Assembly: GCA_027036355.1 (NCBI GenBank)
Contig: JALVQZ010000125.1
Coordinates: 1-38,420, forward strand
DNA: 38,420 bases
Direction: 5' to 3'
Source of the DNA: Acidimicrobiia bacterium
GTDB taxonomy: Bacteria > Actinomycetota > Acidimicrobiia > Spongiisociales > UBA5794
Shown here: positions 3,755-25,747 of the stretch, piece after piece
How the letters are laid out: the number at the start of each line of letters is the position of its first letter
Position numbering within the stretch: position 1 is the stretch's first letter
Program-made: the position numbers and the translations under genes
The notes under the pieces: model-generated
Database searches by the model: none
What the model saw: only the letters and a program-made list of their open reading frames with translations
What the model was told of the DNA's origin: nothing

Positions 3755-3781
3755 TTACGTCGGGCCCGGCGGAGCCGACAG
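3755..3781 (+). promoter_or_regulatory. sigma28/FliA-type promoter upstream of flbD-motAB-fliL
   Basis: cTTAC-N15-GCCGACAG. Confidence 0.6.
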
Positions 3782-3809
3782 ATCAGGTGCAAGCGACGAA
3801 CGATGAGCA

Positions 3810-3848
3810 CATCCAAAGGGAATTGGATGAGCGTGCACAAGGAGGTGC
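3810..3848 (+). promoter_or_regulatory. Two CsrA-type ANGGA hairpins in flbD leader, the second enclosing the SD
   Basis: CATCCAA-AGGGAA-TTGGATG (3810-3829) and GCAC-AAGGAG-GTGC (3835-3848). Confidence 0.7.
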
Positions 3849-3851
3849 CGA

Positions 3852-4115
3852 GTGATCCCCGTATCACCGCTCCAGGGTCGATCGATCCTGGTCAACGCGG
3901 ATCTCATCGAAGCCATCGAACGTGTTCCCGATACCGTCGTCGTCCTCGCCAACGGCCGGCGGATGTTCGTCACCGACTCCCCTGAGGAGATCATCGACCG
4001 GATCCGCCACGTTCGCGCCTCGATCTTGGCCTACGCCGACGACATCCTCGATCACGGTACCGCCGAAGTCGTTGCGTTGCATGGGATCGACGGGATCCCG
4101 GGGGACCTCCGATGA
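3852..4115 (+). CDS. flbD: Flagellar FlbD family protein, copy 1
   Basis: MI.V..L.G...VNADLIE.IE..PDTVV.L.NG motif; lies before motA. Confidence 0.9.
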   Translation: MIPVSPLQGRSILVNADLIEAIERVPDTVVVLANGRRMFVTDSPEEIIDRIRHVRASILAYADDILDHGTAEVVALHGIDGIPGDLR

Positions 4116-4894
4116 CGACCATCCTGGGTATCGTCATCGCCCTTCTCGCGATCGTCGTGGCGACGATCATGGACGGGAACTCGTTCGGCGCGCTCATCGG
4201 CCCTTCGTCGCTGGTGCTCGTTCTCGTCGGGTCGCTCGGCGTGTCGATGTCGGGGTTCCAGATGGACGACCTGAAGAAGCTGCCGAAGGTCATCATCTAC
4301 TCGTTCACCGGCAAGGAACCGGACGCCTCGGCCACCGTCGACACGCTGATGGAAGCCGCCGAAGTGGCCCGCAAGGAAGGGGTGCTCGCCCTCGAATCGA
4401 AGCTCGAAGGGATCGAAGACCCCTTCCTCCGCAACGGTCTGCAGTCGGTCGTCGACGGCGTCGACGCCGACACGATCAGGGACATGCTGGAGATCGACAT
4501 CCAGGCGCTCGACGATCGGCACCGCACCGGCATGAACATCGTCAAGGCGATGGGTGGCTACGCCCCGACCATGGGCATGATCGGGACCGTCGTGGGGCTC
4601 ATCAACATGCTGGGCAACCTCTCGGACCCTGCCCAGCTCGGGCTCGGCATGTCCGTGGCCCTGTTGACGACCCTGTACGGCGTCATCTTCGCCAACCTCG
4701 TGTTCCTCCCCATCTCCGCCAAGCTCGAACGCTTGAACGCCCTCGAACTGGCACAGCGTGAGCTCGCCATGGACGGCATCCTCGCCATTCAGGCCGGAGC
4801 CAGCCCCCGGCTCCTCGTCGAGCGCCTCGAGTCCTACCTCATCCCCGAGGCCCGCGTGGGCCACCAGGAACGTTCGAAGAGGAAGGCCGCCTGA
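4112..4894 (+). CDS. motA: Stator A subunit (MotA/PomA/MotP family)
   Basis: ARKEGVLALE, APTMGMIGTVVGL, ALLTTLYG; four TM segments. Confidence 0.95.
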   Translation: MTTILGIVIALLAIVVATIMDGNSFGALIGPSSLVLVLVGSLGVSMSGFQMDDLKKLPKVIIYSFTGKEPDASATVDTLMEAAEVARKEGVLALESKLEGIEDPFLRNGLQSVVDGVDADTIRDMLEIDIQALDDRHRTGMNIVKAMGGYAPTMGMIGTVVGLINMLGNLSDPAQLGLGMSVALLTTLYGVIFANLVFLPISAKLERLNALELAQRELAMDGILAIQAGASPRLLVERLESYLIPEARVGHQERSKRKAA

Positions 4895-6235: not shown

Positions 6236-6278
6236 GCGGCGGCGTGGGTTCCTCCGAGCCGCGACGGCCGACGGGTCC

Positions 6279-6305
6279 TTCATCTGGAGGCGTCCCTGCC
6301 GACGG
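6279..6305 (+). promoter_or_regulatory. sigma28-type promoter upstream of fliM
   Basis: cTTCA-N15-GCCGACGG. Confidence 0.55.
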
Positions 6306-10281: not shown

Positions 10282-10290
10282 CTCCGTTCC

Positions 10291-10317
10291 TAAACCCCAC
10301 CCGTTCGATGCCGACTG
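10291..10317 (+). promoter_or_regulatory. sigma28-type promoter upstream of flhB
   Basis: cTAAA-N15-GCCGACTG. Confidence 0.7.
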
Positions 10318-14834: not shown

Positions 14835-14840
14835 CCGGCG

Positions 14841-16337
14841 TCACAGATCCTCGAGGACCGCGACGACGGTGGGATCGAATCGCGATCCGGCTTCGTCCTT
14901 GATCCTGGTCAGGGCCTCGGGGGTCGGATCCGGAGCCGAGGACCAGCGATCGAGCGCATCGGCGACGGCGAGGATGCGGGCCTCGAAGGGGATGTCGGTC
15001 CCTTCGGTCCCGTCGGGGAAGCCCGTGCCGTCCCAGTGCTCGTGGTGGCCTGCGATGGTGTCGGCCACGACGTTCCCGGCCGGGATCCGGACGATGTCGG
15101 CTCCCAGCCGCGGATGGGACCGGTAGGCCTCCGACCCGTCGTCGCCTTCCGGGAACCGCTCGTCGGCGGGAACGTGGATCTTGCCGAGATCGTGGAGCCG
15201 GGCGGCGAGGCGGACCGCCGCCAGGCGGCGTCCTTCCAACCCGAGGCGTTGGGCGAGGTCGGCGACGATCCGCTCCACCCGCAGCCCGTGCCCGGGCCCC
15301 GACGGATCGTCCTGTTCCACGACGTCGACGGCCTGGAGCAGGGCTTCGAGCTCGGTGGTGGCGGAGAAGACCCGGGTGAGGCTGTCGGCGCCGACGATGC
15401 GCTCGCCCAGGCTCCCGTCGACGCACGCGGCGAGTCCCCGCTCGGCGAGCTCCCGGACCGTGGCCACGTCGGAGCCGGTCTCCGGCCCGGCGTGGCCCAT
15501 CGCCAGGACGAGCGGCGCCGAACGGTCGGGGGCGAAGGTCGACGCGATCGACGACATCTCGTGTCCCAACGACGCGAACTCGTCGGCGGCGAGGATCTCG
15601 GCGAGGACGGCGAACTCGTTGTCGCCGACCGAGAAGATGTCGGCGCCTCGGATCCGGCAGGCCTGCTGCATCTGGGATCCGAGCCGCCGCTTGAGGAGCT
15701 TGGTGGCTTCGCGTCCCAGGCGCCCCGTCGGCGAGCCGAGGACCTTCACGGCGCCGTAGCGGGGAACGGTCCCGGCTTGACTGAGCGCGGCGAGACGTTC
15801 GGCGAGGGCGGCCGGGCCGGGCAGGTTCGATGCCGGATCCCGGTCGAACACCACCGGCGCCGCGTCGCCGTTGCCGAGTCGTTCGAGACGTTGCGCGTAC
15901 GTTTCGAGCACGTCCTCCTCGGGCGAGCCGTCCTCGACGTGGAGCCGGATCGCCTCTTCGTTGCCTTCGGCCACGATGGCGGTTCCGCCGCACGCCATCA
16001 GCGCCGCCGCCGTCGCTTCGCCGGCGGGATGGGTCAGGACGATGACCGGGATGTCGGTCGTCTCCATGGCGCAGATCTGCGAGACGGCCTCCGGCGGCGC
16101 ATAGCGGGTGGCCACGACGACGGCCGCGGCGGTGCTCTTCGCCTCGTCGTCGTCGACCAGCTCGTAGCCGTAGGCCGCCAGACGGGACCTGAGGGGATCG
16201 GGCGCCCACGGCGAGTAGAGGGTCAGGGTGGGGATCTCGACGGCCGGTTCGGTCTCGGGAGACGCCGGAGCGGATTCGGCCTCTTCGGCCGCGGCGGTCT
16301 CCGGCGGGGCCTCGAGCTCGGTTGCGGATCCTGCCAC
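14841..16337 (-). CDS. HD-GYP phosphodiesterase with N-terminal receiver-like and degenerate GGDEF domains
   Basis: GTG start after AAGGAGG; LHDLGK, HHEHWDGTGFP and ARILAVAD; central RDPASNLP...VGDNEFAVL. Confidence 0.85.
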   Translation of the reverse strand: MAGSATELEAPPETAAAEEAESAPASPETEPAVEIPTLTLYSPWAPDPLRSRLAAYGYELVDDDEAKSTAAAVVVATRYAPPEAVSQICAMETTDIPVIVLTHPAGEATAAALMACGGTAIVAEGNEEAIRLHVEDGSPEEDVLETYAQRLERLGNGDAAPVVFDRDPASNLPGPAALAERLAALSQAGTVPRYGAVKVLGSPTGRLGREATKLLKRRLGSQMQQACRIRGADIFSVGDNEFAVLAEILAADEFASLGHEMSSIASTFAPDRSAPLVLAMGHAGPETGSDVATVRELAERGLAACVDGSLGERIVGADSLTRVFSATTELEALLQAVDVVEQDDPSGPGHGLRVERIVADLAQRLGLEGRRLAAVRLAARLHDLGKIHVPADERFPEGDDGSEAYRSHPRLGADIVRIPAGNVVADTIAGHHEHWDGTGFPDGTEGTDIPFEARILAVADALDRWSSAPDPTPEALTRIKDEAGSRFDPTVVAVLEDL

Positions 16338-16340
16338 GGC

Positions 16341-16377: not shown

Positions 16378-16395
16378 CCGGCGGATCTGCCGACC

Positions 16396-16422
16396 CTGTC
16401 GGCGGGAGCCTGGTGCGGTGAA
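16396..16422 (-). promoter_or_regulatory. sigma28-type promoter for the HD-GYP gene
   Basis: Minus strand cTTCA-N15-GCCGACAG. Confidence 0.55.
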
Positions 16423-16435
16423 GGTCTCGGTCACG

Positions 16436-16462
16436 TAAACATCGCCCCGTTCCGGCCGACAG
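16436..16462 (+). promoter_or_regulatory. sigma28-type promoter for FlgN paralog
   Basis: TAAA-N15-GCCGACAG. Confidence 0.7.
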
Positions 16463-16472
16463 GAACGGGGAC

Positions 16473-16559
16473 ATGAGCCACCTCATCGCACCTGCGTCGA
16501 TCCCGGCGGGCGCCTCCCGCCGGTCGTGGCGCGGTCTCACGTGGAGGAGCGCCCGATGA
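16473..16559 (+). other. Possible 28-aa upstream ORF coupled to FlgN paralog
   Basis: MSHLIAPASIPAGASRRSWRGLTWRSAR; its TGA overlaps the downstream ATG (ATGA, 16556-16559). Confidence 0.25.
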
Positions 16560-17095
16560 CCCTCGGTGACGCGGTGTCCGGCTTGATCGGTCCACATCAG
16601 GTGCCGCCACCGTCACCGGCGACCGCCGGTGGCGCCGAGGAGCGGATGCGAGCACTGCTCGCGTTGCTCGACGAGGAGCGGAGCATGCTCGAGAGGCTCG
16701 TGCACAAGCTGGCGGCGGCGACGGTCCTGGCCGAGGCCGCCGAGGACGTCTACCTCCTCAGGGCTGCCGACGAGGTCGTGGAAGCCGAGGAGGACCTCGG
16801 TGCCATGGAACTGGCGAGGGCGATGATGGTCGCCGACATCTGCGATCTGCTCGGCTTCGCCAACGAACTCACCCTCACCCAGCTCACCCAGGTCGCGCCG
16901 GAGGGTCTCAGGGAACCGCTCGAGCGTCGCCGGAGCGAACTCCTCGCCCAGGTCGACGACGTCAACCGGCTCAGGGAACGAGGTCGCGGCGCCGTCGAGG
17001 AGCGGCTGGCGCGGATCGAGCAGGGACTGTCCGGCCTGGAGGCCGCGATGGAAGACGGACGCTACGAGCCGCCGTCGTCGCGACGCTTCACCTGA
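16556..17095 (+). CDS. FlgN-like export chaperone, second paralog
   Basis: GGAGG SD; aligns by eye with 20019-20537 (ER..L..KL; TL..L...APE.LRE). Confidence 0.7.
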   Translation: MTLGDAVSGLIGPHQVPPPSPATAGGAEERMRALLALLDEERSMLERLVHKLAAATVLAEAAEDVYLLRAADEVVEAEEDLGAMELARAMMVADICDLLGFANELTLTQLTQVAPEGLREPLERRRSELLAQVDDVNRLRERGRGAVEERLARIEQGLSGLEAAMEDGRYEPPSSRRFT

Positions 17096-17319
17096 TCGGG
17101 TCGGGTCTCGGCGAAGCGGCGTTTGGCCTCGGCAGCATGCTCGACGGCGGCCAGGTTCTCCCGTTTGACCTGCTCGTACACCTCGGCCCGATGGACCTGG
17201 ACGCTGCGGGGAGCGTCGATCCCGATCCGCACCTGACCGCCGCGAACCTCGACGATCGTGATGACGATGTCGTTCTGGATGACGATGGATTCTCCGGGGC
17301 GACGGGTGAGGACGAGCAT
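17062..17319 (-). CDS. csrA: Translational regulator CsrA
   Basis: MLVLTRRPGESIVI..DI.I.IVEVRGGQVRIGIDAPRSVQVHRAE with the C-terminal extension typical of FliW-paired CsrA. Confidence 0.97.
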   Translation of the reverse strand: MLVLTRRPGESIVIQNDIVITIVEVRGGQVRIGIDAPRSVQVHRAEVYEQVKRENLAAVEHAAEAKRRFAETRPDQVKRRDDGGS

Positions 17320-17714
17320 CAGGCGGCCGTCAGTTCGAATCGGGCCCTGGCGGGATAGCCGCTGTCGGAGAGCACCACCTGCCGGCCGATGCGCTCGGCG
17401 GCATTGACGACGAACGGGCCGAGGAGGTTGAGGTAGAGCGCGCCTTCGTCTTCGGCGTCGAAGGTCACCGAACAGAACACCGTGGCATCTTCGGGTCGCT
17501 CGATGGAGAGATCGGCCTCGTCCTCGGACGAGAGCTCCAGGGTGTAGTCGGGCACGAACAGCCACGGCACGGTGACCAGCATGGCGATCTCGGGATCGTC
17601 GACCGAGCGCAGCTCGTAGAACGCCGAGTCGGGCGCGAGCTCGACGAGCACGAACCGTTCCAGCTCGGGGAACCCGGGGATACCGCCCGGGAAGCGGATG
17701 ATCTTGTCTTCCAT
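17319..17714 (-). CDS. fliW: Flagellar assembly factor / CsrA antagonist FliW
   Basis: IRFPGGIPGFP, PW.FVPDY, NLLGP.VVN....GRQVVL; TGATG coupled to csrA. Confidence 0.93.
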   Translation of the reverse strand: MEDKIIRFPGGIPGFPELERFVLVELAPDSAFYELRSVDDPEIAMLVTVPWLFVPDYTLELSSEDEADLSIERPEDATVFCSVTFDAEDEGALYLNLLGPFVVNAAERIGRQVVLSDSGYPARARFELTAA

Positions 17715-17769
17715 GGTCACCGATCTGCAGTGGGAGCGGTCGGGGTGCAGGGTAGCGCCGAGATCTCCG

Positions 17770-18654: not shown

Positions 18655-18657
18655 GCG

Positions 18658-20019
18658 CTACCTCCCCACGAGCCCGGTCCGGTTGACGAGCGTGTCGAGG
18701 AGCTGATCGACGGCGGTCATGACCCGCGCCGCCGCTTCGTAGGAACGCTGGTACCGGATGAGGTCCGCCATCTCCTCGTCGAGGGACACGCCTTGGCGCG
18801 ACTCGCGGATGTTCTGAGCGGTGCGGAGCAGGTTCTGGGACGACTCGGCGTTGGTGGCCGCCAGCCGAGCGCGGCTGCCCACGTCGGTGACGACCTGGCG
18901 GAAGGCGCCGTCGATCGTCGTCGTTCCCGAGAGGGCGACCGCGGCGTCGCGGAGCGCCGCGATGGCGTCGGCGTTGGTGCCGTCGAAGGCCGGAACCGGC
19001 GGCCCGGGGTTGCCGGCGGCGGCGATCTGGGAAGGATCGGTGACGGCGACCGCGATGGTGGAGGCCGCCGCCCCCGGCGTGTAGGTCAGGAGGGGACCGC
19101 CGGCCGCTCCCGACGGGGTGAACCCTGCGGCGTGAGCGGCGTTGATGGCATCGGCCAGGTCGGCGGCGAAGGTGTCGAGGCCGGACATGAGCGCCGGAGC
19201 GTCGTTCGTGAGGAACTCGGCGTAGCCGGCCAGCGCCCCGCCGGGGTTCAACGGGTTGCCCGAGTCGTCGGTGAACGCGTAGGAACCGTCGACGGCGATC
19301 TGGTGGACGGTGCTGCCGTCGACGAGCGCCAGCCCGTTCAACGAGACCCGAACGGTTCCGTCGCCGTTGTCGCTGATCGCGACCCCGGCGAGTTCGGTGA
19401 GCCGGTCGAGGATCCGATCCCGGGAGTCGAGGAGGTCGTTGGGGGCGCCCACGGTGGCCGCATCGAGGATCTGCACGTTGAGCGGCCCGAGGTCGCGCAG
19501 GAGCGTGTTGACCTCACCGACGGTGTCGCGCAACTCGACGCCCGCCCGATCGATCTGGGCGGTCCACGAGCCAGCCAGGTCCCTGATCCGGGCGGTCACG
19601 GCGTCCATGGCCGCGATGGTGTCGAGGCGGGCCGCGGTGTCGGGCGGATCGAGCGCGAGCTGCTCGAACGACGCCCACAGATCCCCGAGGGCGCCGGTGA
19701 TCCCTCCCTCGGGCTCCATCGTCATCTCGTCCATGGTGCCCAGCAGTCCCGACATCGCGGCGAACCTCCCGGCGACCTCCGAGTTGGCCCACACCCGGCG
19801 ATCCGCGAACCGGTCCCGGGCTCGGGAGATGTCGATCACGTCGACCCCCGTGCCGATCGGGCCGACCGGGCTCTGGTAGGTGGAACGGCTCGCCAGTTCG
19901 ACACGCTGGCGGGTGTAGCCGGCGGTCCCGGCGTTGGCGACGTTGTTGGAGGCCGTGTCGGTGCCCGCCTGGGCGGCCTGGAGGGCGGAGAAGGCGGTGT
20001 AGAGGCTGATCATGCTCAT
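18658..20019 (-). CDS. flgK: Hook-filament junction protein FlgK
   Basis: SNNVANA.TAGYTRQRV, NDLLDSRD, GVSLDEEMADLIRYQRSYEAAARV. Confidence 0.95.
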   Translation of the reverse strand: MSMISLYTAFSALQAAQAGTDTASNNVANAGTAGYTRQRVELASRSTYQSPVGPIGTGVDVIDISRARDRFADRRVWANSEVAGRFAAMSGLLGTMDEMTMEPEGGITGALGDLWASFEQLALDPPDTAARLDTIAAMDAVTARIRDLAGSWTAQIDRAGVELRDTVGEVNTLLRDLGPLNVQILDAATVGAPNDLLDSRDRILDRLTELAGVAISDNGDGTVRVSLNGLALVDGSTVHQIAVDGSYAFTDDSGNPLNPGGALAGYAEFLTNDAPALMSGLDTFAADLADAINAAHAAGFTPSGAAGGPLLTYTPGAAASTIAVAVTDPSQIAAAGNPGPPVPAFDGTNADAIAALRDAAVALSGTTTIDGAFRQVVTDVGSRARLAATNAESSQNLLRTAQNIRESRQGVSLDEEMADLIRYQRSYEAAARVMTAVDQLLDTLVNRTGLVGR

Positions 20020-20537
20020 CAGAGCACCTCGTCGATCCGCGCCGGGTTCGCCTGTCGCTCGGAGCGGTGGCGACCGGAGGCGTCGTAGAGGCCCGGATCG
20101 CCGTCCCCGTCGGCGAGGATCCCGAAGCTGCCGCCGATCCCCGACAGGCCGAGGGTGGCCAGGCGTCGGTTCTCCTTGGTGACCGATTCGATCTCCCCGG
20201 TGAGGGCGAGGAAGCGGTTGCGATGGTCCTCGAACACCTCGCGCAGCTCCTCGGGTGCGTTGACGGCGAGGTAGGCGAGGGTCACCGACGCGGCGGGAAC
20301 ACCCCATTCGGCGGCGAGGCTCGAGACGATCTCCGCCCGGTCCGTCTCGGTCTTGCGGATCTCGGCGATGATCCGATCCACCTCCCCGATCGCCGGTGCG
20401 ATGAACCGCTGGTCGTCGGCGTTGAGCATGAGGTTGGCGGTCACCAGCTTGAACAGGAGGTACTCCATGAGACGGCGCTCGTACCACAGGATGTCTGCGA
20501 GACGCGTCAACTGCTGGAGGCGGAGCTGTGGATCCAT
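20019..20537 (-). CDS. flgN: Export chaperone FlgN (actinobacterial type)
   Basis: ILWYERRLMEYLLFKL, EDHR..FL; directly upstream of flgK. Confidence 0.85.
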   Translation of the reverse strand: MDPQLRLQQLTRLADILWYERRLMEYLLFKLVTANLMLNADDQRFIAPAIGEVDRIIAEIRKTETDRAEIVSSLAAEWGVPAASVTLAYLAVNAPEELREVFEDHRNRFLALTGEIESVTKENRRLATLGLSGIGGSFGILADGDGDPGLYDASGRHRSERQANPARIDEVL

Positions 20538-20545
20538 CGTGGTTC

Positions 20546-20572
20546 CGGTCGGCCGTCGAGACCGCCGCTTAA
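20546..20572 (-). promoter_or_regulatory. sigma28-type promoter for flgN-flgK-flgL-fliW-csrA
   Basis: Minus strand cTTAA-N15-GCCGACCG, 8 nt before the flgN ATG. Confidence 0.7.
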
Positions 20573-20609
20573 GGAGGAACGGGGCGCCGCAGGGACGTTG
20601 CTCCTTAAG
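20568..20609. repeat. 14-bp inverted repeat spanning both divergent -35 elements
   Basis: CTTAAGGAGGAACG-N14-CGTTGCTCCTTAAG, 13/14 match. Confidence 0.8.
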
Positions 20610-20631
20610 TTCGGCGGCGAGCTGCCGAGGT
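20605..20631 (+). promoter_or_regulatory. sigma28-type promoter for degenerate GGDEF gene
   Basis: cTTAA-N15-GCCGAGGT. Confidence 0.65.
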
Positions 20632-20645
20632 AGGTAGAGGTATAT

Positions 20646-20672
20646 CGATGGAACGTGCCGTCACGGAACGGC
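20646..20672 (+). promoter_or_regulatory. CsrA-type sites in GGDEF leader
   Basis: CG-ATGGAA-CG (weak stem) and GCCGT-CACGGA-ACGGC (20657-20672). Confidence 0.55.
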
Positions 20673-20691
20673 CGAGCTCAGGGGAGTCGAC

Positions 20692-21348
20692 ATGAACGGT
20701 GGAACGAACGGACCCGCGGGGATCCCGATGAACGGATCCACCGCCTCGGCCCAGGAGGCGATGGAACGGATCGCCGCGCTCGAGGAGATCATCGCCGGCC
20801 AGCGGGCCGAACTCGGTCTGCTCCGCCTGCAGCTCGAGATGCTGTCCGCGACCGATGTGATCACGGGCCTGCCCAACTTGACCGGCATCATGCAGACCCT
20901 CGAGAAGCAGCTCGCTCGCCATCGTCGGACGGCCGAGCCGTTCGGGATCATGCTGATCGAAGCCGACGGCATCGAAACGACCGAGGGCGCGGGCCAAGAG
21001 GCCCTCCACGACGCGTTGCGCCACTGCGGAGCGATGATCTCGGCGGCGCTGCGCCAGTCCGATACGGTCGGGCGGATCGACGAGCGGACCTTCGCCGCCG
21101 TCCTGCCCGATCTGAGCCGCGACGGTGCGGGCGTGGTGATGGGCAGGATCGACGCCAACCTCCGGACGATGCCTCCCGGCCCGATCGACGCCCCGACCCG
21201 CCTCACCCCGCGTCTGTCGGTCGTGCTGATCGACGGCGCCTTCGCCGGCGACGCCACCGATCTGATGGAGGGCATCAACCGCCTCCGCGTCGAGGCGAAG
21301 CCCGGAGAGCCCACGATCATCGAATCGTCGGACCTCGCCGCCTCCTGA
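20692..21348 (+). CDS. Degenerate GGDEF-domain protein (GGDEF changed to DERTF) with intact RxxD I-site
   Basis: Coiled coil, then TDVITGLPN, and RQSD-TVGRI-DERTF-AAVLP. Confidence 0.85.
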   Translation: MNGGTNGPAGIPMNGSTASAQEAMERIAALEEIIAGQRAELGLLRLQLEMLSATDVITGLPNLTGIMQTLEKQLARHRRTAEPFGIMLIEADGIETTEGAGQEALHDALRHCGAMISAALRQSDTVGRIDERTFAAVLPDLSRDGAGVVMGRIDANLRTMPPGPIDAPTRLTPRLSVVLIDGAFAGDATDLMEGINRLRVEAKPGEPTIIESSDLAAS

Positions 21349-21455
21349 CCGACGCGAGGCATCGGAGACCGTCTCGACGGTCGTGCGTTCCTGGTCACGG
21401 CCGGCCCGCCGCGGGTGCCGGCGACCGTGGTCGCCTCCTCGCCCCACGTTTCCGC

Positions 21456-21482
21456 TTAACCGGCCGTGGTGACGGCCGACGG
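21456..21482 (+). promoter_or_regulatory. sigma28-type promoter upstream of flgE
   Basis: cTTAA-N15-GCCGACGG. Confidence 0.7.
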
Positions 21483-21497
21483 GACCCGGCGAGCGGA

Positions 21498-21591
21498 ACG
21501 GAAGACCGGCCGCACGCTCGTACCAGCAGCGCTCCACGGATCGGAGCCGATCCTCTCTAGGGACGGAGACGACCATCACGAAGGAGTGATG
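21498..21591 (+). promoter_or_regulatory. Tandem CsrA-type ANGGA hairpins in flgE leader
   Basis: ACGGA 21498; GCTCC-ACGGATC-GGAGC 21531-21547; TCTC-TAGGGACG-GAGA 21554-21569; CATCAC-GAAGGA-GTGATG 21574-21591 enclosing the SD. Confidence 0.72.
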
Positions 21592-21596
21592 CGCCG

Positions 21597-22823
21597 ATGA
21601 TGCGATCGATGTTCTCCGGGGTCTCCGGATTGCGGTCCAACCAGACGATGATGGATGTGGTCGGCCACAACATCGCCAACGTCAACACCGCCGGTTTCAA
21701 GTCCTCCCAGGTCACGTTCGAGGAAGCGCTCGCCCAGACGCTCGGCGGCCCGTCGGGCGCCGGCGTCAACCGCGGCGGGACGAACCCCATCCAGATGGGT
21801 CTCGGCGTGAAGATCGCGTCGACCGACGCCGTCTTCACGCAGGGGGCGACGCAGGTCACGGGCCGGCCCACCGACCTGGCCATCCAGGGCGACGGGTTCT
21901 TCGTGCTCGAAGGCGGCGGCGAACGGGTCTACACGCGGGCCGGCACGTTCCGGTTCGACGAGGTGGGCAACATCGTCGCCCCCGGCGGCATGATGGTCCT
22001 CGGCTGGACCGCCGACGGCGCCGGCAACATCGACAACCAGGTGGCGGTCGCGCCGATCACCCTTCCGCTGACCCAGGTCATCGAGCCGAACCTCACCACG
22101 CTCGTCGAGGTGGGTGGCAACCTGTCCGCCGACACGGCCGTCGGCGACGTGCACCGCACCTCGATCGACATCATCGACAGCCTCGGCGAGTCGAGGAACC
22201 TGCTGATCGAGTTCCAGAAGACCGCAGCCAACGACTGGGACGTGTCGGCCACCGTGGACGGCAACGCCGTGACGCTGTCGACCGCCTCGATCAGCTTCAA
22301 CCCGGACGGATCGCTCGCCGGACCCACCAGCTTCACGGTGTCGGGCTACACGCCCCCCGGCGCGAACCCGCTGAACTTCACGGTGGAGCTCGCCGGGAGC
22401 GCGCCGCTCCTCCAGTACGGCGGCGTGGCCAACGCCGAGGCCGTCAACCAGGACGGCAACCCGATCGGGTTCCTGAGGGACTTCTCGATCGGCGCCGACG
22501 GATCGATCAACGGGGTGTTCTCCAACGGAGAGGCCAAGCTCCTTGCCCAGATCGCCACGGCGACGTTCAACAACCCGTCGGGTCTCGTTCGCAACGGCGA
22601 ATCCCACTTCGCCGCCTCGGTGAACTCCGGTCAGGCCTTGATCGGCGTCCCCGGGGGCGGAGGCAAGGGCACGATCGCCGCCGGTGCCCTCGAGATGAGC
22701 AACGTGGACCTCGCCCAGGAGTTCACCAACCTGATCATCGCCCAGCGCGGGTTCCAGGCCAACTCCAGGATCATCACCGCCAGCGACGAGGTCCTGGCCG
22801 ATCTGGTCAACATGAAGCGATGA
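21597..22823 (+). CDS. flgE: Flagellar hook protein FlgE
   Basis: MRSMFSGVSGL, NIANVNTAGFK, DLAIQGDGFF, YTRAG.F, LEMSNVDLAQEFTNLIIAQRGFQANSR. Confidence 0.96.
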   Translation: MMRSMFSGVSGLRSNQTMMDVVGHNIANVNTAGFKSSQVTFEEALAQTLGGPSGAGVNRGGTNPIQMGLGVKIASTDAVFTQGATQVTGRPTDLAIQGDGFFVLEGGGERVYTRAGTFRFDEVGNIVAPGGMMVLGWTADGAGNIDNQVAVAPITLPLTQVIEPNLTTLVEVGGNLSADTAVGDVHRTSIDIIDSLGESRNLLIEFQKTAANDWDVSATVDGNAVTLSTASISFNPDGSLAGPTSFTVSGYTPPGANPLNFTVELAGSAPLLQYGGVANAEAVNQDGNPIGFLRDFSIGADGSINGVFSNGEAKLLAQIATATFNNPSGLVRNGESHFAASVNSGQALIGVPGGGGKGTIAAGALEMSNVDLAQEFTNLIIAQRGFQANSRIITASDEVLADLVNMKR

Positions 22824-22854
22824 TCTCGATCTCGACCCTTGATGGGAGGCACGC

Positions 22855-23100
22855 ATGATCACCGTCCACCGGCTGCGAGGAGAAGAGATCTTCCTCAACG
22901 CCGACTTGATCGAGTCGATCGAGCGGACGCCCGACACGGTCGTCACGCTCATCGACGGCCGCCGCATCGTGGTGGCCGACGATCCGGACGACATCGCTCG
23001 TCGGGTCGTGGCCTACCGGGGCGCGATCCTCGCTTCGGCCGAGGACATGCGATCCGGTGGTCGGCCTTCCCTCGTGATGGTCGAGGGAGGTGACGAATGA
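22855..23100 (+). CDS. flbD: Flagellar FlbD family protein, copy 2
   Basis: 35 of the first 64 residues identical to 3852-4115 by manual alignment. Confidence 0.9.
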   Translation: MITVHRLRGEEIFLNADLIESIERTPDTVVTLIDGRRIVVADDPDDIARRVVAYRGAILASAEDMRSGGRPSLVMVEGGDE

Positions 23101-23519
23101 GCGAGCACGTGCTGATCATCGACGACGACGAGGACTTCGCCCGGCTCCTGTCGGTGTACCTGAGCCGGGCGGGGTTCCGCACGACGATCGCCCCCGACGG
23201 GATCCAGGGTCAGATGGCGGCCAACCGGTCCCGCCCCGACGTGATCGTCCTGGACTACCAGATGCCGGCCGCGTCGGGGGTCACCGTCGCCGCTCGCCTC
23301 CGGCGCTCCACGCTCACCGGAGGGATCCCGGTGGTCATGTTGACCGGGCACAAGACCCAGACCCTCACCAGCACGGCGATGGCCGCCGGCGTCGCCGCGG
23401 TGGTGTCGAAGAACGACCTCACCGAGGACCTCCTGCTGCGCACCTTGCGGACCGCACTCGACGGGAACATGGGAACGTCCGTCGACCTCGACGCCCTGTT
23501 CCCGATCGATGTCACCTGA
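23097..23519 (+). CDS. Single-domain response regulator (CheY-like)
   Basis: IIDDD, LDYQMP phosphoacceptor, MLT, and K in VSKN. Confidence 0.9.
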   Translation: MSEHVLIIDDDEDFARLLSVYLSRAGFRTTIAPDGIQGQMAANRSRPDVIVLDYQMPAASGVTVAARLRRSTLTGGIPVVMLTGHKTQTLTSTAMAAGVAAVVSKNDLTEDLLLRTLRTALDGNMGTSVDLDALFPIDVT

Positions 23520-24594
23520 ACGGCCTCGACCGATGTCGCTGTTCCCTCTCGGGGTGGCGGCGTTCGCGGCGGGGGTGGCGATCACCGCGGTTCCGGGATC
23601 GACGCCGGTCGCGCTGCGGGTGGCGACCTTGGCGGTGTTCGTCGCCGCCTATGTGTGGGCGGCGTCGGTCGAGATCATCGTCCGGCAGCGGTCCGGTGGA
23701 GATCGCCGCTGGTCGGTGCTCCCGCGGCCGGTCCTCGACAGCGTGGTGGACGCGCATCTGGCCACCCGGGCCCACGAGGACGCCCTTCGTTCCGCCATCC
23801 AGCGGGAGCGCATCGCCGGCCTGGAGCTCGAGATCCGGGCTGCGGCCGCGGCGGAGGCACAGCGCCGTGTCGAGGAGCTCAACGCGGAACTCGAGGCGTT
23901 CACGTTCTCCGCATCGCACGACCTGGCCGTCCCTCTCAAGACGATCCGGGCGTTCGTCGCGCTCTTGGAGGAATCGGACGGCCATCGCCTGGGTGAGGAG
24001 GGACGCGAGTACCTCGCTCGGGTGGGCAACATCGCGGCCCGGATGGAGGAGCTGATCGGCGACCTGCTGTCGCTGGCGAGGATGCGGCGCGACGCCGACC
24101 CCGAACCGGCGCTCGTCGACGTGCGTGGCCTCGTCGACGAGGTCGCCGGCGACGTGGAACGAGCCGTCGGCAAGCCCATCGACGTCCGGGTGGTGGGCGA
24201 CGTCGCCGAGCTGCTGGCTCCGCCATCGCGGCTGCGAGCCATCCTGCAGAACCTCATCCACAACGGCGCCAAGTACAACGACCACGAGCGGCCGTCGATC
24301 AGGGTGCTCGTGGACGCCGGGGACCGGTTCGCGTCGCTGGTGATCATGGACGACGGCATCGGGGTGGCCGAGGGCGACCGGGAACGGATCTTCGAGCTGT
24401 TCGTCAGAGGCACGGACCATCTCGGGCTGCCGGGAACCGGCGCCGGCCTGGCGATCGCCCGGCGCGCCGCTCGATCCCTCGGCGGCGACCTCTGGTTGGA
24501 GACGACCGGACCGGAGGGAACCACCTTCTGTCTCACCATCCCCCGAACGGCGGTCCCCGAGCACGGGGCCGGCCGGCCGGCGTCGGTCGCTTGA
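23509..24594 (+). CDS. Membrane sensor histidine kinase
   Basis: Two TMs, H-box SHDLAVPL, N-box NLIHNGAKY, DDGIG, F.R, GAGL; start may be the ATG at 23533. Confidence 0.9.
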   Translation: MSPERPRPMSLFPLGVAAFAAGVAITAVPGSTPVALRVATLAVFVAAYVWAASVEIIVRQRSGGDRRWSVLPRPVLDSVVDAHLATRAHEDALRSAIQRERIAGLELEIRAAAAAEAQRRVEELNAELEAFTFSASHDLAVPLKTIRAFVALLEESDGHRLGEEGREYLARVGNIAARMEELIGDLLSLARMRRDADPEPALVDVRGLVDEVAGDVERAVGKPIDVRVVGDVAELLAPPSRLRAILQNLIHNGAKYNDHERPSIRVLVDAGDRFASLVIMDDGIGVAEGDRERIFELFVRGTDHLGLPGTGAGLAIARRAARSLGGDLWLETTGPEGTTFCLTIPRTAVPEHGAGRPASVA

Positions 24595-25712
24595 ACCCGG
24601 TGACCGAGCGGACCCCGGAGAGTCCTCAAGGCCTCGAGGGACCTGCCGACGGGTACGCCGCTATGGATCGGAGACACAAGACCATCATCCGTGGGGTCCT
24701 GATCGGGTTCCTGGTCGGGTCGATCTTCCCCCTCGTCGCCCTCGTCGTCGGCAGCGCCACCACCGGATCGGCCTCCATCGTCGACCTCCGGCGCGCCCAG
24801 CCGGTCACGTGGATCATCGACTTCTTCCCGTTCGCCCTCGCCGCCCTCGGTGGGCTCCTGGCCAGCGCCTCGTTCCGTTTCCGGGTCCTCGAGGAGCACA
24901 CCGAGGAGATCGCCCACCGGGTGATCGAGGAGTGGACGACCCAGATCCACGACACCAACGCCGAGATCGCCCGCTCCGCCCAATCCCAGGCGAAGTTCTT
25001 CGCCGCCCTGTCCCACGACATGCGGACGCCGCTGTCGGCCATCATCGGGTTCTCGACGCTCATCGAGGAGGAGGAGCAGGACCCCGAACTCGTGCGGGCC
25101 ATGGCCAGCGACATCCGGTCGTCGGCGACCCAGGTCCTCACCATGGTCAACGACCTCCTCGACGCCGCCCGGATGGACTCGGGGAAGATCGACATCGAGG
25201 TCGTCGACGTCGACACCGAGCAGATGATCAAGGACATCGCCAGGCACATGGGACCCCTCGCGGACGAGAAGCACCTGGACATGTCGCTCGATCTCGAACC
25301 GGGCGTCGAGTGTCGGGCCGATCCGCAGCGCCTCCGTCAGATCCTGATCAACCTCCTGTCCAACGCCGTGAAGTACACCGACGAAGGCGGCATCTGGATC
25401 CGGACCCGCTCGGTCGCCCGCAAGGTCTTCGTGGAGGTCCAGGACAGCGGTGCGGGCATCGCGCCGGAGGACGTGCCCGCGGTCTTCACCCCCTTCGAGC
25501 AGACCACCGTCGCCCAGCAGCGGGTCGACTCGACCGGCCTCGGGTTGCCCATCTCGCTGGGGCTGGCCCAGGCGATGGGTGGCACCATCGAGTTCCACTC
25601 GGAAGGCCCGGGGAAGGGCAGCACGTTCACGCTGATCCTCCCGGCGGCGACGGGCGAGGAAGCCGAGCCGCGGGTCGCCACCCTTCCCACCCTCGTGTCC
25701 TCGGCGGCGTGA
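24591..25712 (+). CDS. Membrane sensor histidine kinase
   Basis: Two TMs, SHDMRTPL, RLRQILINLLSNAVKYT, DSGAGI, TGLGL, GKGSTF; start (TTG vs later ATG) uncertain. Confidence 0.92.
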   Translation: MNPVTERTPESPQGLEGPADGYAAMDRRHKTIIRGVLIGFLVGSIFPLVALVVGSATTGSASIVDLRRAQPVTWIIDFFPFALAALGGLLASASFRFRVLEEHTEEIAHRVIEEWTTQIHDTNAEIARSAQSQAKFFAALSHDMRTPLSAIIGFSTLIEEEEQDPELVRAMASDIRSSATQVLTMVNDLLDAARMDSGKIDIEVVDVDTEQMIKDIARHMGPLADEKHLDMSLDLEPGVECRADPQRLRQILINLLSNAVKYTDEGGIWIRTRSVARKVFVEVQDSGAGIAPEDVPAVFTPFEQTTVAQQRVDSTGLGLPISLGLAQAMGGTIEFHSEGPGKGSTFTLILPAATGEEAEPRVATLPTLVSSAA

Positions 25713-25720
25713 CGGCCGCC

Positions 25721-25747
25721 TCAAGTGCGCCGGCGCGATGCCGATGA
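25721..25747 (+). promoter_or_regulatory. sigma28-type promoter upstream of cheA
   Basis: cTCAAG..., TCAA-N15-GCCGATGA. Confidence 0.75.

What the first reader, a model, noticed from the sequence alone, without database searches (positions are those of the whole stretch)
3755..25747. Candidate layered sigma28 + CsrA/FliW + c-di-GMP circuit running a whole actinobacterial flagellum
Seen in the sequence: nine sigma28-type promoters, ANGGA hairpins in five of their leaders, fliW-csrA inside the cluster, and two c-di-GMP-domain genes that carry both signals. Known: in B. subtilis the FliW-CsrA-flagellin partner switch mainly controls flagellin translation, and in Streptomyces the sigma28 WhiG is gated by c-di-GMP through RsiG. 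Inference: one sigma may transcribe early and late flagellar genes together, with assembly order imposed post-transcriptionally by CsrA and fed back through c-di-GMP turnover. That would differ from the classical class II/III hierarchy.
Basis: partly seen in the sequence, partly recalled or inferred. Interest (0 to 1): 0.85.

Follow-up and report, generated by a model that had tools for sequence, protein, structure and literature searches.

The report
Flagellar regulon with σ28 and CsrA signals
A flagellar gene cluster of an uncultured Acidimicrobiia bacterium has the same alternative-sigma promoter before nearly every operon and CsrA-type RNA hairpins in the leaders of early and late flagellar operons, which offers a testable candidate for the missing post-transcriptional control of actinobacterial flagella.

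Summary
The window (a whole contig of an Acidimicrobiia MAG) carries fliI to cheA. It has 7 strong and 2 weak WhiG/FliA (σ28)-type boxes, C-T-[T/A/C]-A-N-N-N14-GCCGA[C/T]. The strict pattern gives 6 matches against 0.37 expected. The boxes are conserved in relatives. Multiple σ28 boxes in actinobacterial flagellar clusters, σ28 sites before c-di-GMP genes, and non-hierarchical transcription are already published.

The less expected part is CsrA. An A-N-GGA-N loop closed by a stem of at least 4 bp occurs in 16 of 940 leaders genome-wide, but in 6 of 12 σ28-type leaders: fliC, flgB, flbD1-motAB, flhBA, flgE and HD-GYP. It recurs in relatives with different stems (fliC 18/29, flhB 7/8, flgE 9/29).

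The genome also encodes a Streptomyces-like WhiG with an RsiG homologue, and a second σ28 next to flagellin. The "GGDEF" gene is degenerate (DERTF, RxxD kept), so it is probably a c-di-GMP receptor and not a cyclase.

The claim that CsrA imposes assembly order is not supported, because the sites sit on early and late operons alike. No transcript data were available. Verdict: real, mostly a known kind, with a new and testable CsrA layer for Actinobacteria.

The parts
3754..3779 (+). σ28-type box before flbD1-motA-motB-fliL (CTTACG-N14-GCCGAC)
   Evidence: (PWM 19.3); kept in G018
3810..3848 (+). flbD1 leader: hairpin CATCCAA/TTGGATG with loop AGGGAA, then GCACAAGGAGGTGC over the SD
   Evidence: G122 has a different stem (TCCCAC/GTGGGA) with loop ACGGAC and the same SD context
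6278..6303 (+). weak σ28-like box before fliM (CTTCAT-N14-GCCGAC); a second GCCGA lies at 6267
   Evidence: Poor -35, not found by the regex in relatives, no strict hairpin
10290..10315 (+). σ28-type box before flhB-flhA-unk378-unk79
   Evidence: (PWM 22.5). A box is found upstream of flhB in all 8 loci L121-L128
10321..10386 (+). flhB leader: hairpin CGGTGCCC-ATGGAGC-GGGCACCG, second site CCATGGAACGG, third GGA in the SD (GCGGAGCC)
   Evidence: Strict module in 7 of 8 loci of the clade, with different stems
14841..16337 (-). 498-aa protein with a REC-like region, a degenerate GGDEF (GDNEF) and an HD-GYP domain (HD kept, HHEHWDGTGFP)
   Evidence: Pfam HD_5 1.1e-27; NCBIfam c-di-GMP phosphodiesterase family 89 bits, below cut-off; residues
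16335..16423 (-). HD-GYP upstream region: weak σ28-like box (16398-16423), hairpin GTTGC-ACGGAT-GCAAC (16362-16377), SD ACAAGGAGG
   Evidence: (PWM 15.0). Hairpin and SD are kept in G018 and G122, not in G023, G227 or G131
16435..16470 (+). σ28-type box before the flgN-like 189-aa gene, enclosed by a 9-bp inverted repeat (16445-16470)
   Evidence: (PWM 20.2). Box kept in G018 and G122
17062..17720 (-). fliW (17319-17720) and csrA (17062-17319; 85 aa, with a C-terminal extension beyond the 53-residue domain)
   Evidence: Pfam FliW 1.8e-33 and CsrA 2e-26; sequences. Both are found in 7 of the 8 relatives whose fetched piece reaches that far: G018, G122, G023, G174, G227, G086, G235. In G131 only csrA passed my 1e-8 threshold; fliW is listed at 31% identity
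17770..20573 (-). flgN-flgK-flgL, with a σ28-type box (20548-20573) whose -10 ends 11 nt before the ATG. This is likely a leaderless mRNA that also carries fliW-csrA
   Evidence: (PWM 23.8). The same 9-14 nt distance is seen in G018, G023, G174, G242 and G074
20604..21348 (+). σ28-type box (20604-20629), a GGA-rich 92-nt leader, and a 206-aa coiled-coil plus degenerate GGDEF protein (DERTF; RQSD kept)
   Evidence: (PWM 19.7). Degeneracy and RxxD hold in 8 of 8 orthologues. Box kept in G018, G122 and G074
21455..21599 (+). σ28-type box (21455-21480) and flgE leader: hairpins at 21531-21547 (loop ACGGATC) and 21554-21569 (loop AGGGAC), and the SD GAAGGA in the loop of CATCAC/GTGATG
   Evidence: (PWM 21.2). 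Strict module in 9 of 29 flgE loci, including the 6 closest. Box kept in G018, G122, G023 and G074
25720..25745 (+). σ28-type box before the cheA-cheY hybrid gene
   Evidence: (PWM 17.9). Kept in G018 only by the regex; no strict hairpin
24625..24650 (+). σ28-type box inside the 5' end of the second histidine kinase gene; function unknown
   Evidence: (PWM 19.1). Kept in G018

Best explanation
The window is the core of the flagellar and chemotaxis regulon of an Acidimicrobiia bacterium.

SHOWN FROM SEQUENCE.
- Nearly every transcription unit is preceded by one promoter class of the WhiG/FliA (σ28) type. This covers early genes (flgB operon, flhBA), the hook gene flgE, the stator operon, late genes (flgN-K-L, fliC), the chemotaxis genes and two c-di-GMP-domain genes.
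- The genome encodes two σ28 paralogues. A FliA/WhiG1-like one lies divergent from flagellin and has its own σ28-type box. A Streptomyces-like WhiG lies in a dprA-xerC-σ-rpsB-tsf context, and the genome has a full-length RsiG homologue.
- Six leaders carry short hairpins with A-N-GGA-N loops, usually with a further GGA over the Shine-Dalgarno. They are fliC, flgB, flbD1-motAB, flhBA, flgE and HD-GYP.

INFERRED.
- The flagellin-linked σ reads these boxes and reinforces its own gene.
- CsrA, held in check by FliW and through FliW by the cytoplasmic flagellin pool, binds these hairpins. It would thereby throttle translation of most structural operons and of the HD-GYP enzyme, not of flagellin alone. 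This would couple output of a flat, single-tier transcriptional regulon to flagellin export, as a homeostat rather than a timer.
- The flgN-flgK-flgL-fliW-csrA mRNA seems leaderless and would escape this control at its 5' end.
- The HD-GYP protein may lower c-di-GMP. The degenerate GGDEF protein probably senses it. RsiG would tie c-di-GMP to the second σ28. Whether that σ reads the flagellar boxes is open.
For: PROMOTERS. 6 matches against 0.37 expected, with 0 of 100 shuffles reaching 6. 6 of the 13 promoter-positioned matches in the genome lie in this 1.3% of it. The best PWM hits outside the window lie before the flgB-position ORF-flgC-fliE-fliF (C110), a cheY-like gene (C283) and fliC (C92). 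Boxes are kept before flgN in 5 relatives, before flgE in 4, before the GGDEF-like gene in 3, and before flhB in 8 of 8 clade loci.

σ FACTORS. TIGR02479 scores 269 bits for the C70 σ and 175 bits for the C92 σ. C70 scores 283 bits to the PDB chain 6pfj_A. C92 scores about 120 bits to both WhiG and FliA chains. The C92 σ has an upstream box tTTACC-N14-GCCGAC.

RsiG. C15:1371-1913 matches chain 6pfj_T at E = 3.9e-13 over residues 16-177.

CsrA MODULE.
- It occurs in 16 of 940 leaders genome-wide, and 4 of those 16 are flagellar. Counting flbD1 and flgB as well, 6 of 12 σ28-type leaders have it against 12 of 936 others (Fisher 1.6e-8; without fliC 4e-7).
- An independent MFE-based criterion gives 5 of 11 against 5.2%.
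- In the window, 8 of 20 modules lie in the 3.6% that is intergenic.
- Positive control: 18 of 29 flagellin leaders across the class have the module upstream of an A-N-GGAGGA SD.
- Conservation with differing stems: flhB 7 of 8, flgE 9 of 29.
- Non-circular test: an A-N-GGA-N hexamer has a stem of at least 4 bp in 2.8% of other leaders, against 33% in fliC, 69% in flhB and 50% in flgE leaders of relatives.
- The other module-bearing genes are unrelated housekeeping genes. No Rfam family matches the leaders.

PRECEDENT. [quoted passage not shown]
Against: - No transcript or binding data exist. No RNA run was listed, so TSSs, leader ends and CsrA binding are all inferred.
- I tightened the module definition after looking at the leaders. 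It equals the published CsrA consensus, but the P values are optimistic.
- A looser definition is common in the background (33%) and gives only P = 0.004 (9 of 12).
- Six of the 12 σ28-type leaders lack the module: fliM, flgN-like, GGDEF-like, cheA, cheY-like and the C92 σ.
- The module is missing from flhB in G227, and from HD-GYP leaders beyond family level.
- It was scarce in three loci from other actinobacterial classes.
- Relatives are not independent, and the flgE set was partly picked after seeing modules.
- Two boxes are weak (fliM, HD-GYP).
- Other promoter classes were not excluded. The σ70 scan uses an E. coli consensus.
- RsiG's two motifs deviate from E-x3-S-x2-R-x3-Q-x3-D (D..S..R..H..D and E..S..R..Y..E).
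- RsiG occurs in 198 of 301 genomes of the class regardless of flagella, so it need not act on motility.
- In Geodermatophilus, RsiG binds WhiG2 but not WhiG1 (PMC13595943).
- The partner-switch logic would repress early genes when flagellin accumulates, which is not an obvious design.
Confidence: 0.6

Rival explanations
1. CsrA acts on flagellin only, as in Bacillus subtilis. The GGA hairpins in the other leaders are ordinary leader structures for mRNA stability or SD masking, or partly chance, and CsrA does not bind them in vivo.
For: - The fliC leader has by far the best site: a 10-bp stem with loop ATGGAT, plus ACAAGGAGG over the SD.
- A loose definition of a GGA hairpin is met by 33% of all leaders.
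- Half of the σ28-type leaders lack the strict module.
- I tuned the module after seeing the data.
- Three loci from other actinobacterial classes show few modules.
Against: - The same loop (A-[C/U]-GGA-N) as in 18 of 29 flagellin leaders recurs in flhB (7 of 8) and flgE (9 of 29) leaders. The stems differ in sequence but still pair.
- Hexamers in these leaders are flanked by stems 18-25 times more often than in other leaders.
- The only non-flagellar genes with the module are scattered housekeeping genes at about 1.3%.
- C. jejuni shows that FliW-type CsrA can bind many flagellar mRNAs.
Confidence: 0.25
2. A conventional hierarchy still exists. Early operons are started by a housekeeping-σ or activator-dependent promoter that this analysis cannot see. 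The σ28-type boxes only boost them later, as with the σD promoter inside the B. subtilis fla/che operon (recalled). Alternatively the two σ28 paralogues split the regulon into tiers.
For: - Two σ28 paralogues exist with different contexts.
- Only the flagellin-linked one has its own σ28-type box, so something else must start the cascade.
- Box quality varies: PWM 15 for HD-GYP against 24 for flgN.
- fliM has only a poor box.
- In Actinoplanes a response regulator, TcrA, activates five flagellar units in addition to FliA (Introduction of PMC13083903).
- The cluster encodes a receiver protein and two kinases in the flgE operon.
Against: - No E. coli-type σ70 consensus was found in 14500-26000 (0 found, 0.5 expected), which is a weak test for this phylum.
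- The highest-scoring boxes include both early units (flhB 22.5; flgB operon 20.6) and a late one (flgN 23.8), so box strength does not sort by class.
- In Actinoplanes, loss of FliQ left flagellar transcript levels unchanged.
Confidence: 0.3
3. The GGA loops are not CsrA sites. They are SD-like ribosome standby sites, or targets of another RNA-binding factor or small RNA.
For: - Some loops contain GGAG (flhB ATGGAGC), which could pair with the anti-SD.
- The flgE SD itself sits in a hairpin loop.
- No binding data exist.
Against: - Most loops lack GGAG (ACGGAT, ACGGAC, AGGGAA, ACGGAAC).
- The invariant part is A-N-GGA, the CsrA core.
- csrA and fliW are encoded in the same cluster in 7 of the 8 relatives whose fetched piece covers that region; in the eighth (G131) fliW matched only at 31% identity.
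- The canonical CsrA target, flagellin, carries the same module.
Confidence: 0.08

Closest known systems
FliA/WhiG1-dependent flagellar regulon of Actinoplanes missouriensis and other Actinomycetota (Jang 2016, Hashiguchi 2020, Denis 2026)
   Same: - One σ28-type promoter class before all flagellar transcription units.
- Several boxes inside the cluster.
- A σ28 paralogue encoded at the cluster.
- No FlgM in the cluster.
- σ28 boxes before c-di-GMP genes, chemotaxis genes and a pilus ATPase gene.
The box here (CT[T/C/A]A-N16-GCCGA) fits the search consensus -35 xT(C/A)Ax, -10 GCCGA used in PMC13595943. Co-occurrence of WhiG1, WhiG2 and RsiG is described for Geodermatophilaceae.
   Different: - The class differs. 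'Acidimicrobi' has 0 occurrences in the main text of PMC13595943.
- The -10 is extended here to GCCGACnGG[A/T].
- Those papers do not mention CsrA or FliW: 0 occurrences in PMC13595943 and PMC13083903.
- I could not open Jang 2016 or Hashiguchi 2020. What I say of them comes from the Introduction of PMC13083903 and from passages of PMC13595943.
- Supplements were not seen and may list Acidimicrobiia targets.
FliW-CsrA-flagellin partner switch (Bacillus subtilis hag; Campylobacter jejuni flaA, Dugar 2016)
   Same: - fliW-csrA lie at the end of the flgK-flgL operon.
- The flagellin leader has a GGA hairpin plus a GGA over the SD.
- CsrA has a C-terminal extension.
- As in C. jejuni, many flagellar mRNAs besides flagellin carry candidate sites.
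   Different: - The candidate targets here include the export-gate operon flhBA, which was not enriched in C. jejuni (about 1.2-fold in the table seen). They also include the stator operon and an HD-GYP gene.
- Transcription is single-tier σ28 rather than σ70/σ54/σ28.
- Binding is unproven here.
- The B. subtilis details are recalled, apart from the summary quoted in PMC4894983.
RsiG-(c-di-GMP)-WhiG switch (Streptomyces venezuelae; Rubrobacter radiotolerans)
   Same: - A WhiG-type σ scores 283 bits to the S. venezuelae chain.
- A full-length two-helix RsiG homologue is present.
- Predicted σ28 targets include c-di-GMP genes and a pilus ATPase gene, as in Rubrobacter.
   Different: - Both c-di-GMP-binding motifs deviate: Q is replaced by H or Y, and E and D are swapped.
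- The organism is flagellated and has a second σ28.
- rsiG and this whiG show no σ28 box.
- RsiG is nearly universal in the class and does not track flagella.
Degenerate GGDEF c-di-GMP receptors (PelD, PopA type; recalled)
   Same: The GG[DE]EF site is lost while RxxD is kept five residues upstream, in 8 of 8 orthologues.
   Different: The protein is small (206 aa) with only an N-terminal coiled coil. It is encoded between flgN and flgE behind a σ28 box. Nucleotide binding was not tested.

Membership tests
σ28 (FliA/WhiG)-dependent promoters | -10 GCCGA and a -35 of the xT(C/A)Ax / TAAA type | tested here: met
   Seven boxes fit C/G-T-[T/A/C]-A. HD-GYP and fliM have C at the A position, so these two are weak.
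σ28 (FliA/WhiG)-dependent promoters | Fixed spacing (about 15-16 nt between the TxA core and GCCGA) and a position within 200 nt upstream of a start codon | tested here: met
   All nine share the N14 register after the hexamer. Distances to the called starts are 11-117 nt.
σ28 (FliA/WhiG)-dependent promoters | A cognate σ is encoded in the genome | tested here: met
   TIGR02479 scores 269 bits (C70) and 175 bits (C92; below the 189.6 cut-off but the best family).
σ28 (FliA/WhiG)-dependent promoters | Transcription starts a few nucleotides downstream and depends on the σ | not testable with these tools
   No RNA run was listed.
FliW-CsrA-flagellin partner switch | csrA and fliW genes, adjacent, in a flagellar operon | tested here: met
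   Pfam CsrA 2e-26 and FliW 1.8e-33; the genes abut at 17319.
FliW-CsrA-flagellin partner switch | A flagellin leader with two GGA sites, one in a hairpin loop and one over the SD | tested here: met
   C92 leader. 18 of 29 flagellin loci across the class have the module.
FliW-CsrA-flagellin partner switch | FliW binds CsrA or flagellin alternately, and CsrA represses translation | not testable with these tools
   No complex job was sent. The flagellin C-terminus is cut off by the end of contig C92.
RsiG-(c-di-GMP)-WhiG switch | An RsiG homologue and a WhiG2-type σ | tested here: met
   6pfj_T at E = 3.9e-13, aligned full length. 6pfj_A at 283 bits. NCBIfam WhiG equivalog scores 339.6 bits against a cut-off of 343.
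RsiG-(c-di-GMP)-WhiG switch | Two E-x3-S-x2-R-x3-Q-x3-D motifs (motif text seen in PMC8325347) | tested here: inconclusive
   The exact motif is absent from all called genes. The homologue has D..S..R..H..D and E..S..R..Y..E at the aligned places.
Diguanylate cyclase (GGDEF) | GG[DE]EF active site | tested here: not met
   DERTF in the window protein and [DN][EDG]xxF in 8 of 8 orthologues. The Pfam match covers only positions 2-111 of 161.
Diguanylate cyclase (GGDEF) | RxxD inhibitory / c-di-GMP-binding site | tested here: met
   RQSD is present and RxxD is kept in 8 of 8. Binding itself was not tested.
HD-GYP phosphodiesterase | HD dyad and the HHExxDGxGYP motif | tested here: inconclusive
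   HD is at residue 382 and HHEHWDGTGFP is present. The Y position is F, G, I or R in orthologues, and HD is lost in G131.
FlgM anti-σ28 | A complete small gene with the σ28-binding C-terminal domain, in flagellar context, conserved | tested here: not met
   Only a 36-residue match (40 bits), in a 116-nt gap between unrelated convergent genes on C156, with no nearby stop. It is found in 1 of 5 relatives, the same-genus one.

The most novel reading that the evidence does not exclude
In this lineage FliW-CsrA, not FlgM, is the checkpoint of a flat σ28-only flagellar regulon. CsrA binds hairpins in the leaders of the rod/MS-ring, export-gate, hook, stator and flagellin operons and of an HD-GYP phosphodiesterase. 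Flagellin export would then set the translation of the whole machine. Through c-di-GMP, RsiG and the second σ28 it would also set its transcription. This would be the 'as-yet unidentified' late-stage control that the actinobacterial flagellum literature asks for.
Probability: 0.2. Interest if true: 0.75.

Novelty: new variant of a known kind. Interest (0 to 1): 0.5.

Why it matters
Two recent papers state an open problem. Actinobacterial flagellar clusters lack FlgM, so late-stage control must use an unidentified mechanism (Discussion of PMC13595943). In Actinoplanes all flagellar genes share FliA-type promoters without hook-basal-body feedback, so control 'may be at the post-transcriptional level' (Introduction of PMC13083903). 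Neither paper mentions CsrA.

The conserved GGA hairpins found here in early, middle and late leaders, beside a fliW-csrA pair, give a concrete candidate. It can be tested by gel shifts, CLIP and reporter fusions.

The finding also places a WhiG2-RsiG pair and a flagellin-linked σ28 together in Acidimicrobiia. It flags a conserved degenerate-GGDEF protein in the cluster as a likely c-di-GMP sensor.

If the hairpins are not CsrA sites, what remains is an ordinary member of the known actinobacterial σ28 flagellar regulon.

Tried and rejected
- **RNA evidence.** No RNA holder was listed for window:16300-22900.
- **Global alignment and RNAalifold of seven flhB leaders**. This gave a poor alignment (-3.06 kcal/mol) because the leaders hold repeated hairpin modules. 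I replaced it with module counts.
- **Loose GGA-hairpin definition**. It is too common (33% of leaders) to be useful alone.
- **First PWM scan threshold**. It was too high and gave 0 hits, so I redid it.
- **Exact RsiG motif scan**. There was no hit in called genes. A relaxed scan found the homologue.
- **FlgM.** The Pfam hit on C156 was rejected as a working anti-σ.
- **flgN-like 189-aa protein as a candidate anti-σ.** I considered this, but the sequence looks like an acidic helical FlgN/FliT-type chaperone. No complex job was sent because I make no binding claim.
- **RsiG-σ complex prediction.** Not sent, because a pass would reflect likeness to solved structures.
- **Rfam.** No family matched at gathering thresholds. 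There were two sub-threshold chance matches inside coding sequence.
- **σ70 and terminator scan** of 14500-26000. It found 0 of each, which is uninformative for this phylum.
- **Three loci from other actinobacterial classes** (L027, L039, L043). They had few boxes or modules, so generality beyond Acidimicrobiia is not shown.
- **Other module-bearing leaders in the genome.** They belong to unrelated genes, so no wider CsrA regulon emerged.
- **Searches for print on CsrA in Actinobacteria**. I found no paper proposing CsrA control of actinobacterial flagellar operons. Only these searches back that statement, and supplements were closed.

Full report
WHAT THE WINDOW IS. The 38,420-base window is a whole contig (C125) of a 2.99-Mb, 290-contig genome that is 97.7% complete. 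GC content is about 70%. The nearest named relative, with FlgK 94% identical, is a record titled 'MAG: Acidimicrobiia bacterium'. I called genes by third-position GC and named them with Pfam and NCBIfam. In order, the genes are:
- fliI (cut by the contig end), fliJ, an SLT transglycosylase, a fliK-like ORF and flgD
- flbD1-motA-motB-fliL
- fliM-fliN-fliO-fliP-fliQ-fliR
- flhB-flhA, followed by two unknown ORFs of 378 and 79 aa
- an HD-GYP protein on the minus strand
- a 189-aa flgN-like ORF
- flgN-flgK-flgL-fliW-csrA on the minus strand
- a 206-aa GGDEF-like gene
- flgE-flbD2-receiver-kinase-kinase
- a cheA-cheY hybrid gene
- pcrA and housekeeping genes beyond that

The rest of the flagellar set lies on other contigs. 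C110 carries fliD, an ORF in the flgB position (no Pfam hit), flgC, fliE and fliF. C92 carries flagellin, cut by the contig end.

THE PROMOTER OBSERVATION. All GCCGA pentamers in intergenic DNA were listed. Seven share one register: C/G-T-[T/A/C]-A-N-N, then 14 bases, then GCCGA[C/T], often followed by nGG[A/T]. Two more, before HD-GYP and fliM, have the same register but C at the conserved A.
- The tool's own shuffle test gives 6 matches against 0.37 expected, and no shuffle of 100 reached 6.
- Across the genome a slightly wider regex matches 66 times. Nineteen matches are in the 8% of the genome that is intergenic. Thirteen are in promoter position, and six of those are in this window.
- A weight matrix built from the seven window sites ranks a site before the flgB-position ORF-flgC-fliE-fliF on C110 as its best non-seed hit. 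A site before a cheY-like gene on C283 comes next. Lower hits lie before flagellin, a VanY peptidase gene, a GAF-PAS kinase gene, a PilB-type ATPase gene and a PilZ-bearing glycosyltransferase gene.

In ten relatives whose clusters I fetched (FlgK identity 94% to 36%), boxes recur before flgN (5 genomes), flgE (4), the GGDEF-like gene (3), and flhB and the flgN-like gene (2 each by the regex). A wider look found a box before flhB in all 8 loci of the order-level clade. The boxes are real, non-random and conserved.

WHICH σ. The genome has two σ28-family genes. The first, on C70, lies between dprA-xerC and rpsB-tsf. It scores 283 bits against the S. venezuelae WhiG chain of entry 6pfj and 339.6 bits on NCBI's WhiG model, whose cut-off is 343. 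The second, on C92, lies divergent from flagellin. It is equidistant from WhiG and FliA chains at about 120 bits and has its own box, tTTACC-N14-GCCGAC, about 85 nt upstream. In most flagellated genomes of the class the C92-type σ lies 1-3 kb from flagellin. This matches the WhiG1/WhiG2 split described in PMC13595943 (I read Results part 2, the Discussion and passages).

A relaxed motif scan led to a 180-aa protein on C15. It aligns over its full length with the RsiG chain 6pfj_T at E = 3.9e-13. Its two motif helices read D..S..R..H..D and E..S..R..Y..E instead of the published E-x3-S-x2-R-x3-Q-x3-D (motif seen in the text of PMC8325347). This RsiG homologue is found in 198 of 301 genomes of the class (three of them unpublished), including 16 of 16 in the window's family. 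Only 34 or 35 of 301 have FlgK, FlhB or FlgE. So it is a core feature of the class and not a flagellar accessory.

FlgM is represented only by a 36-residue Pfam match in a 116-nt gap between two unrelated convergent genes. It is seen again only in the same-genus genome. I do not count it as a working anti-σ.

THE CsrA OBSERVATION. I folded each predicted leader, taken from 8 nt after GCCGA to the start codon.
- **Flagellin leader.** It is textbook: a 10-bp stem with loop AUGGAU, and ACAAGGAGG over the SD.
- **HD-GYP and flbD1 leaders.** They repeat this plan, down to the ACAAGGAGGUGC context.
- **flhB leader.** It has three GGA, the first in a heptaloop on an 8-bp stem.
- **flgE leader.** It has seven GGA, with the SD itself in a hairpin loop.

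I used three controls of rising strictness against 940 other leaders of the genome.
- (a) MFE-based: 'SD GGA plus an upstream GGA in a hairpin loop' occurs in 5.2% of other leaders, against 5 of 11.
- (b) Loose: any GGA in a 4-8 nt loop with a stem of at least 4 bp occurs in 33%, against 9 of 12 (P = 0.004).
- (c) Strict: an A-N-GGA-N loop (plus 0 or 1 nt) with a stem of at least 4 bp and at least 2 G:C pairs occurs in 16 of 940. Four of those 16 are flagellar.

With flbD1 and flgB, which my filters had left out of the 940, six of twelve σ28-type leaders carry the strict module, against 12 of 936 others (Fisher 1.6e-8). I fixed the strict definition after seeing the leaders, so this P value is optimistic. 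Dropping fliC, which inspired the definition, still gives 4e-7.

Inside the window, 8 of 20 strict modules on both strands fall in the 3.6% that is intergenic. Six of those eight are in flagellar leaders in the sense orientation.

CONSERVATION. Flagellin leaders from 29 loci across the class serve as the positive control. Eighteen have the strict module 25-90 nt upstream of an A-N-GGAGGA SD, and the stems differ from lineage to lineage.
- **flhB.** In the eight genomes where flhB has its own box and leader (FlhB at least 47% identical), seven have the module. Stems include GCCC/GGGC, GCGCC/GGCGC, GGTC/GATC and CGCC/GGCG. In the other 22 genomes flhB directly follows fliR and none has the module.
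- **flgE.** Nine of 29 loci have it, including the six closest and three from two other families, again with unrelated stems.
- **flbD1.** The family-level relative G122 has a hairpin at the same place with a wholly different stem and loop ACGGAC.
- **HD-GYP.** The hairpin and SD are kept to family level only.

I also ran a test that does not select on stems. Given any A-N-GGA-N hexamer, a stem of at least 4 bp flanks it in 5.2% of 17,920 cases genome-wide and in 2.8% of cases in other leaders. In relatives' leaders the figures are 33% (19 of 57) for fliC, 69% (9 of 13) for flhB and 50% (11 of 22) for flgE. The flgE set included three loci that I picked after seeing modules, and relatives are not independent.

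No Rfam family matches these leaders. The remaining module-bearing genes of the genome are unrelated housekeeping genes.

THE c-di-GMP GENES. The 206-aa protein has an N-terminal coiled coil and a GGDEF fold whose active site reads DERTF, while RQSD sits five residues upstream. All eight orthologues in relatives show the same loss and keep RxxD. It is therefore not a cyclase and is most simply read as a c-di-GMP receptor. That reading is inferred, and the comparison with PelD/PopA is recalled.

The 498-aa protein keeps the HD dyad and HHExWDG. It has GFP where GYP is expected, and that position varies among orthologues. Phosphodiesterase activity is plausible but unproven.

HOW IT LIKELY WORKS.
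Shown: one promoter class on nearly all units; two σ28 paralogues and an RsiG homologue; fliW-csrA in the cluster; and conserved CsrA-type hairpins on six leaders.

Inferred: the flagellin-linked σ drives the regulon and its own gene. CsrA binds the hairpins and, bridging to the SD site, lowers translation. FliW, freed when flagellin leaves the cell, relieves it.

The sites sit on early, middle and late operons alike. The fliW-csrA mRNA looks leaderless, with the -10 ending 11 nt before the flgN ATG and the same distance kept in five relatives. For these reasons I read this as a homeostat tying the whole regulon's translation to export capacity, as proposed for C. jejuni (passages of PMC4894983). 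I do not read it as a device that orders assembly. Graded affinities could still create order, but nothing here tests that.

The link from HD-GYP through c-di-GMP and RsiG to the second σ28 is possible but rests on homology alone. In Geodermatophilus, RsiG binds WhiG2 and not WhiG1 (PMC13595943).

COMPARISON AND NOVELTY. The promoter layer and the σ28-to-c-di-GMP-gene link are already published for other Actinomycetota. Multi-operon CsrA binding of flagellar mRNAs is published for C. jejuni.

Three searches and two directly relevant papers (0 occurrences of CsrA or FliW) gave no proposal that CsrA controls actinobacterial flagellar operons. Both papers name the missing post-transcriptional or late-stage control as open.

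The finding is thus a new variant of known kinds. It has moderate interest and is limited by the lack of any expression or binding data, and by the organism being an uncultured MAG.

Noticed in passing
G000 contig C156:12077-12184 (locus L022:4078-4185); G018 locus L120:1486-2064: There is a 36-residue FlgM-like σ28-binding signature (Pfam 40 bits) in the 116-nt gap between a Na+/H+ exchanger gene and a convergent VCA0040-like gene. In G018 its GTG start overlaps the exchanger's stop. The frame has no stop for more than 150 codons. It may be a remnant or a translationally coupled micro-ORF.
   Followed up: partly
window 16445-16470: A perfect 9-bp inverted repeat (CCCCGTTCC / GGAACGGGG) encloses the -10 box of the flgN-like gene's promoter. 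It lies just upstream of the divergent HD-GYP box and is kept with one G.T in G018. It could be an operator.
   Followed up: no
window 24625-24650: A high-scoring σ28-type box (PWM 19.1) lies about 35-60 nt inside the second histidine kinase gene and is conserved in G018. It may be an internal promoter or chance.
   Followed up: no
window 20537-20573 (-): The flgN box ends 11 nt before the ATG, and five relatives show the same 9-14 nt distance. The flgN-flgK-flgL-fliW-csrA transcript is probably leaderless.
   Followed up: partly
G000 contig C15:1371-1913 (L211): A full-length RsiG homologue with variant c-di-GMP motifs sits 22 nt behind another gene. Homologues occur in 198 of 301 Acidimicrobiia genomes searched (three unpublished: G254, G275, G212). 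In several flagellated genomes (for example G120, G096, G216) it lies 12-30 kb from flgK on the same contig.
   Followed up: partly
The genome search (G226, G066, G291, G297, G206, G234, G070): Close orthologues (54-71% identity) of the flagellin-linked σ occur in genomes where FlgK, FlhB and FlgE were not found with these queries. This σ type is therefore not strictly tied to flagella in the class.
   Followed up: no
window 13462-14834: Two conserved unknown ORFs follow flhA. In the 378-aa one, residues 13-65 weakly resemble the FlhF N-terminus (27.8 bits, cut-off 174) with no GTPase domain match. The 79-aa one looks membrane-bound. Both recur next to flhA in G018, G122, G023 and G174.
   Followed up: partly
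window 8306, 8335, 23084: Strict GGA hairpins also occur inside coding sequence just upstream of internal genes. Two lie in fliO, 70-100 nt before the fliP start. One lies 13 nt before the receiver gene start. They may be internal CsrA sites.
   Followed up: no
window 17062-17095: The 3' ends of csrA (-) and the flgN-like 189-aa gene (+) overlap convergently by 34 nt.
   Followed up: no
window 3852-4115 and 22855-23100: There are two flbD (SwrD-like) genes. One heads the motAB operon and one follows flgE.
   Followed up: no
window 20630-20727: The GGDEF-like gene's leader holds six GGA in 92 nt, several of them as GGAACG repeats, without a strict hairpin. The leader in G122 is similarly GGA-rich. 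It could act as a CsrA sponge or bind something else.
   Followed up: no
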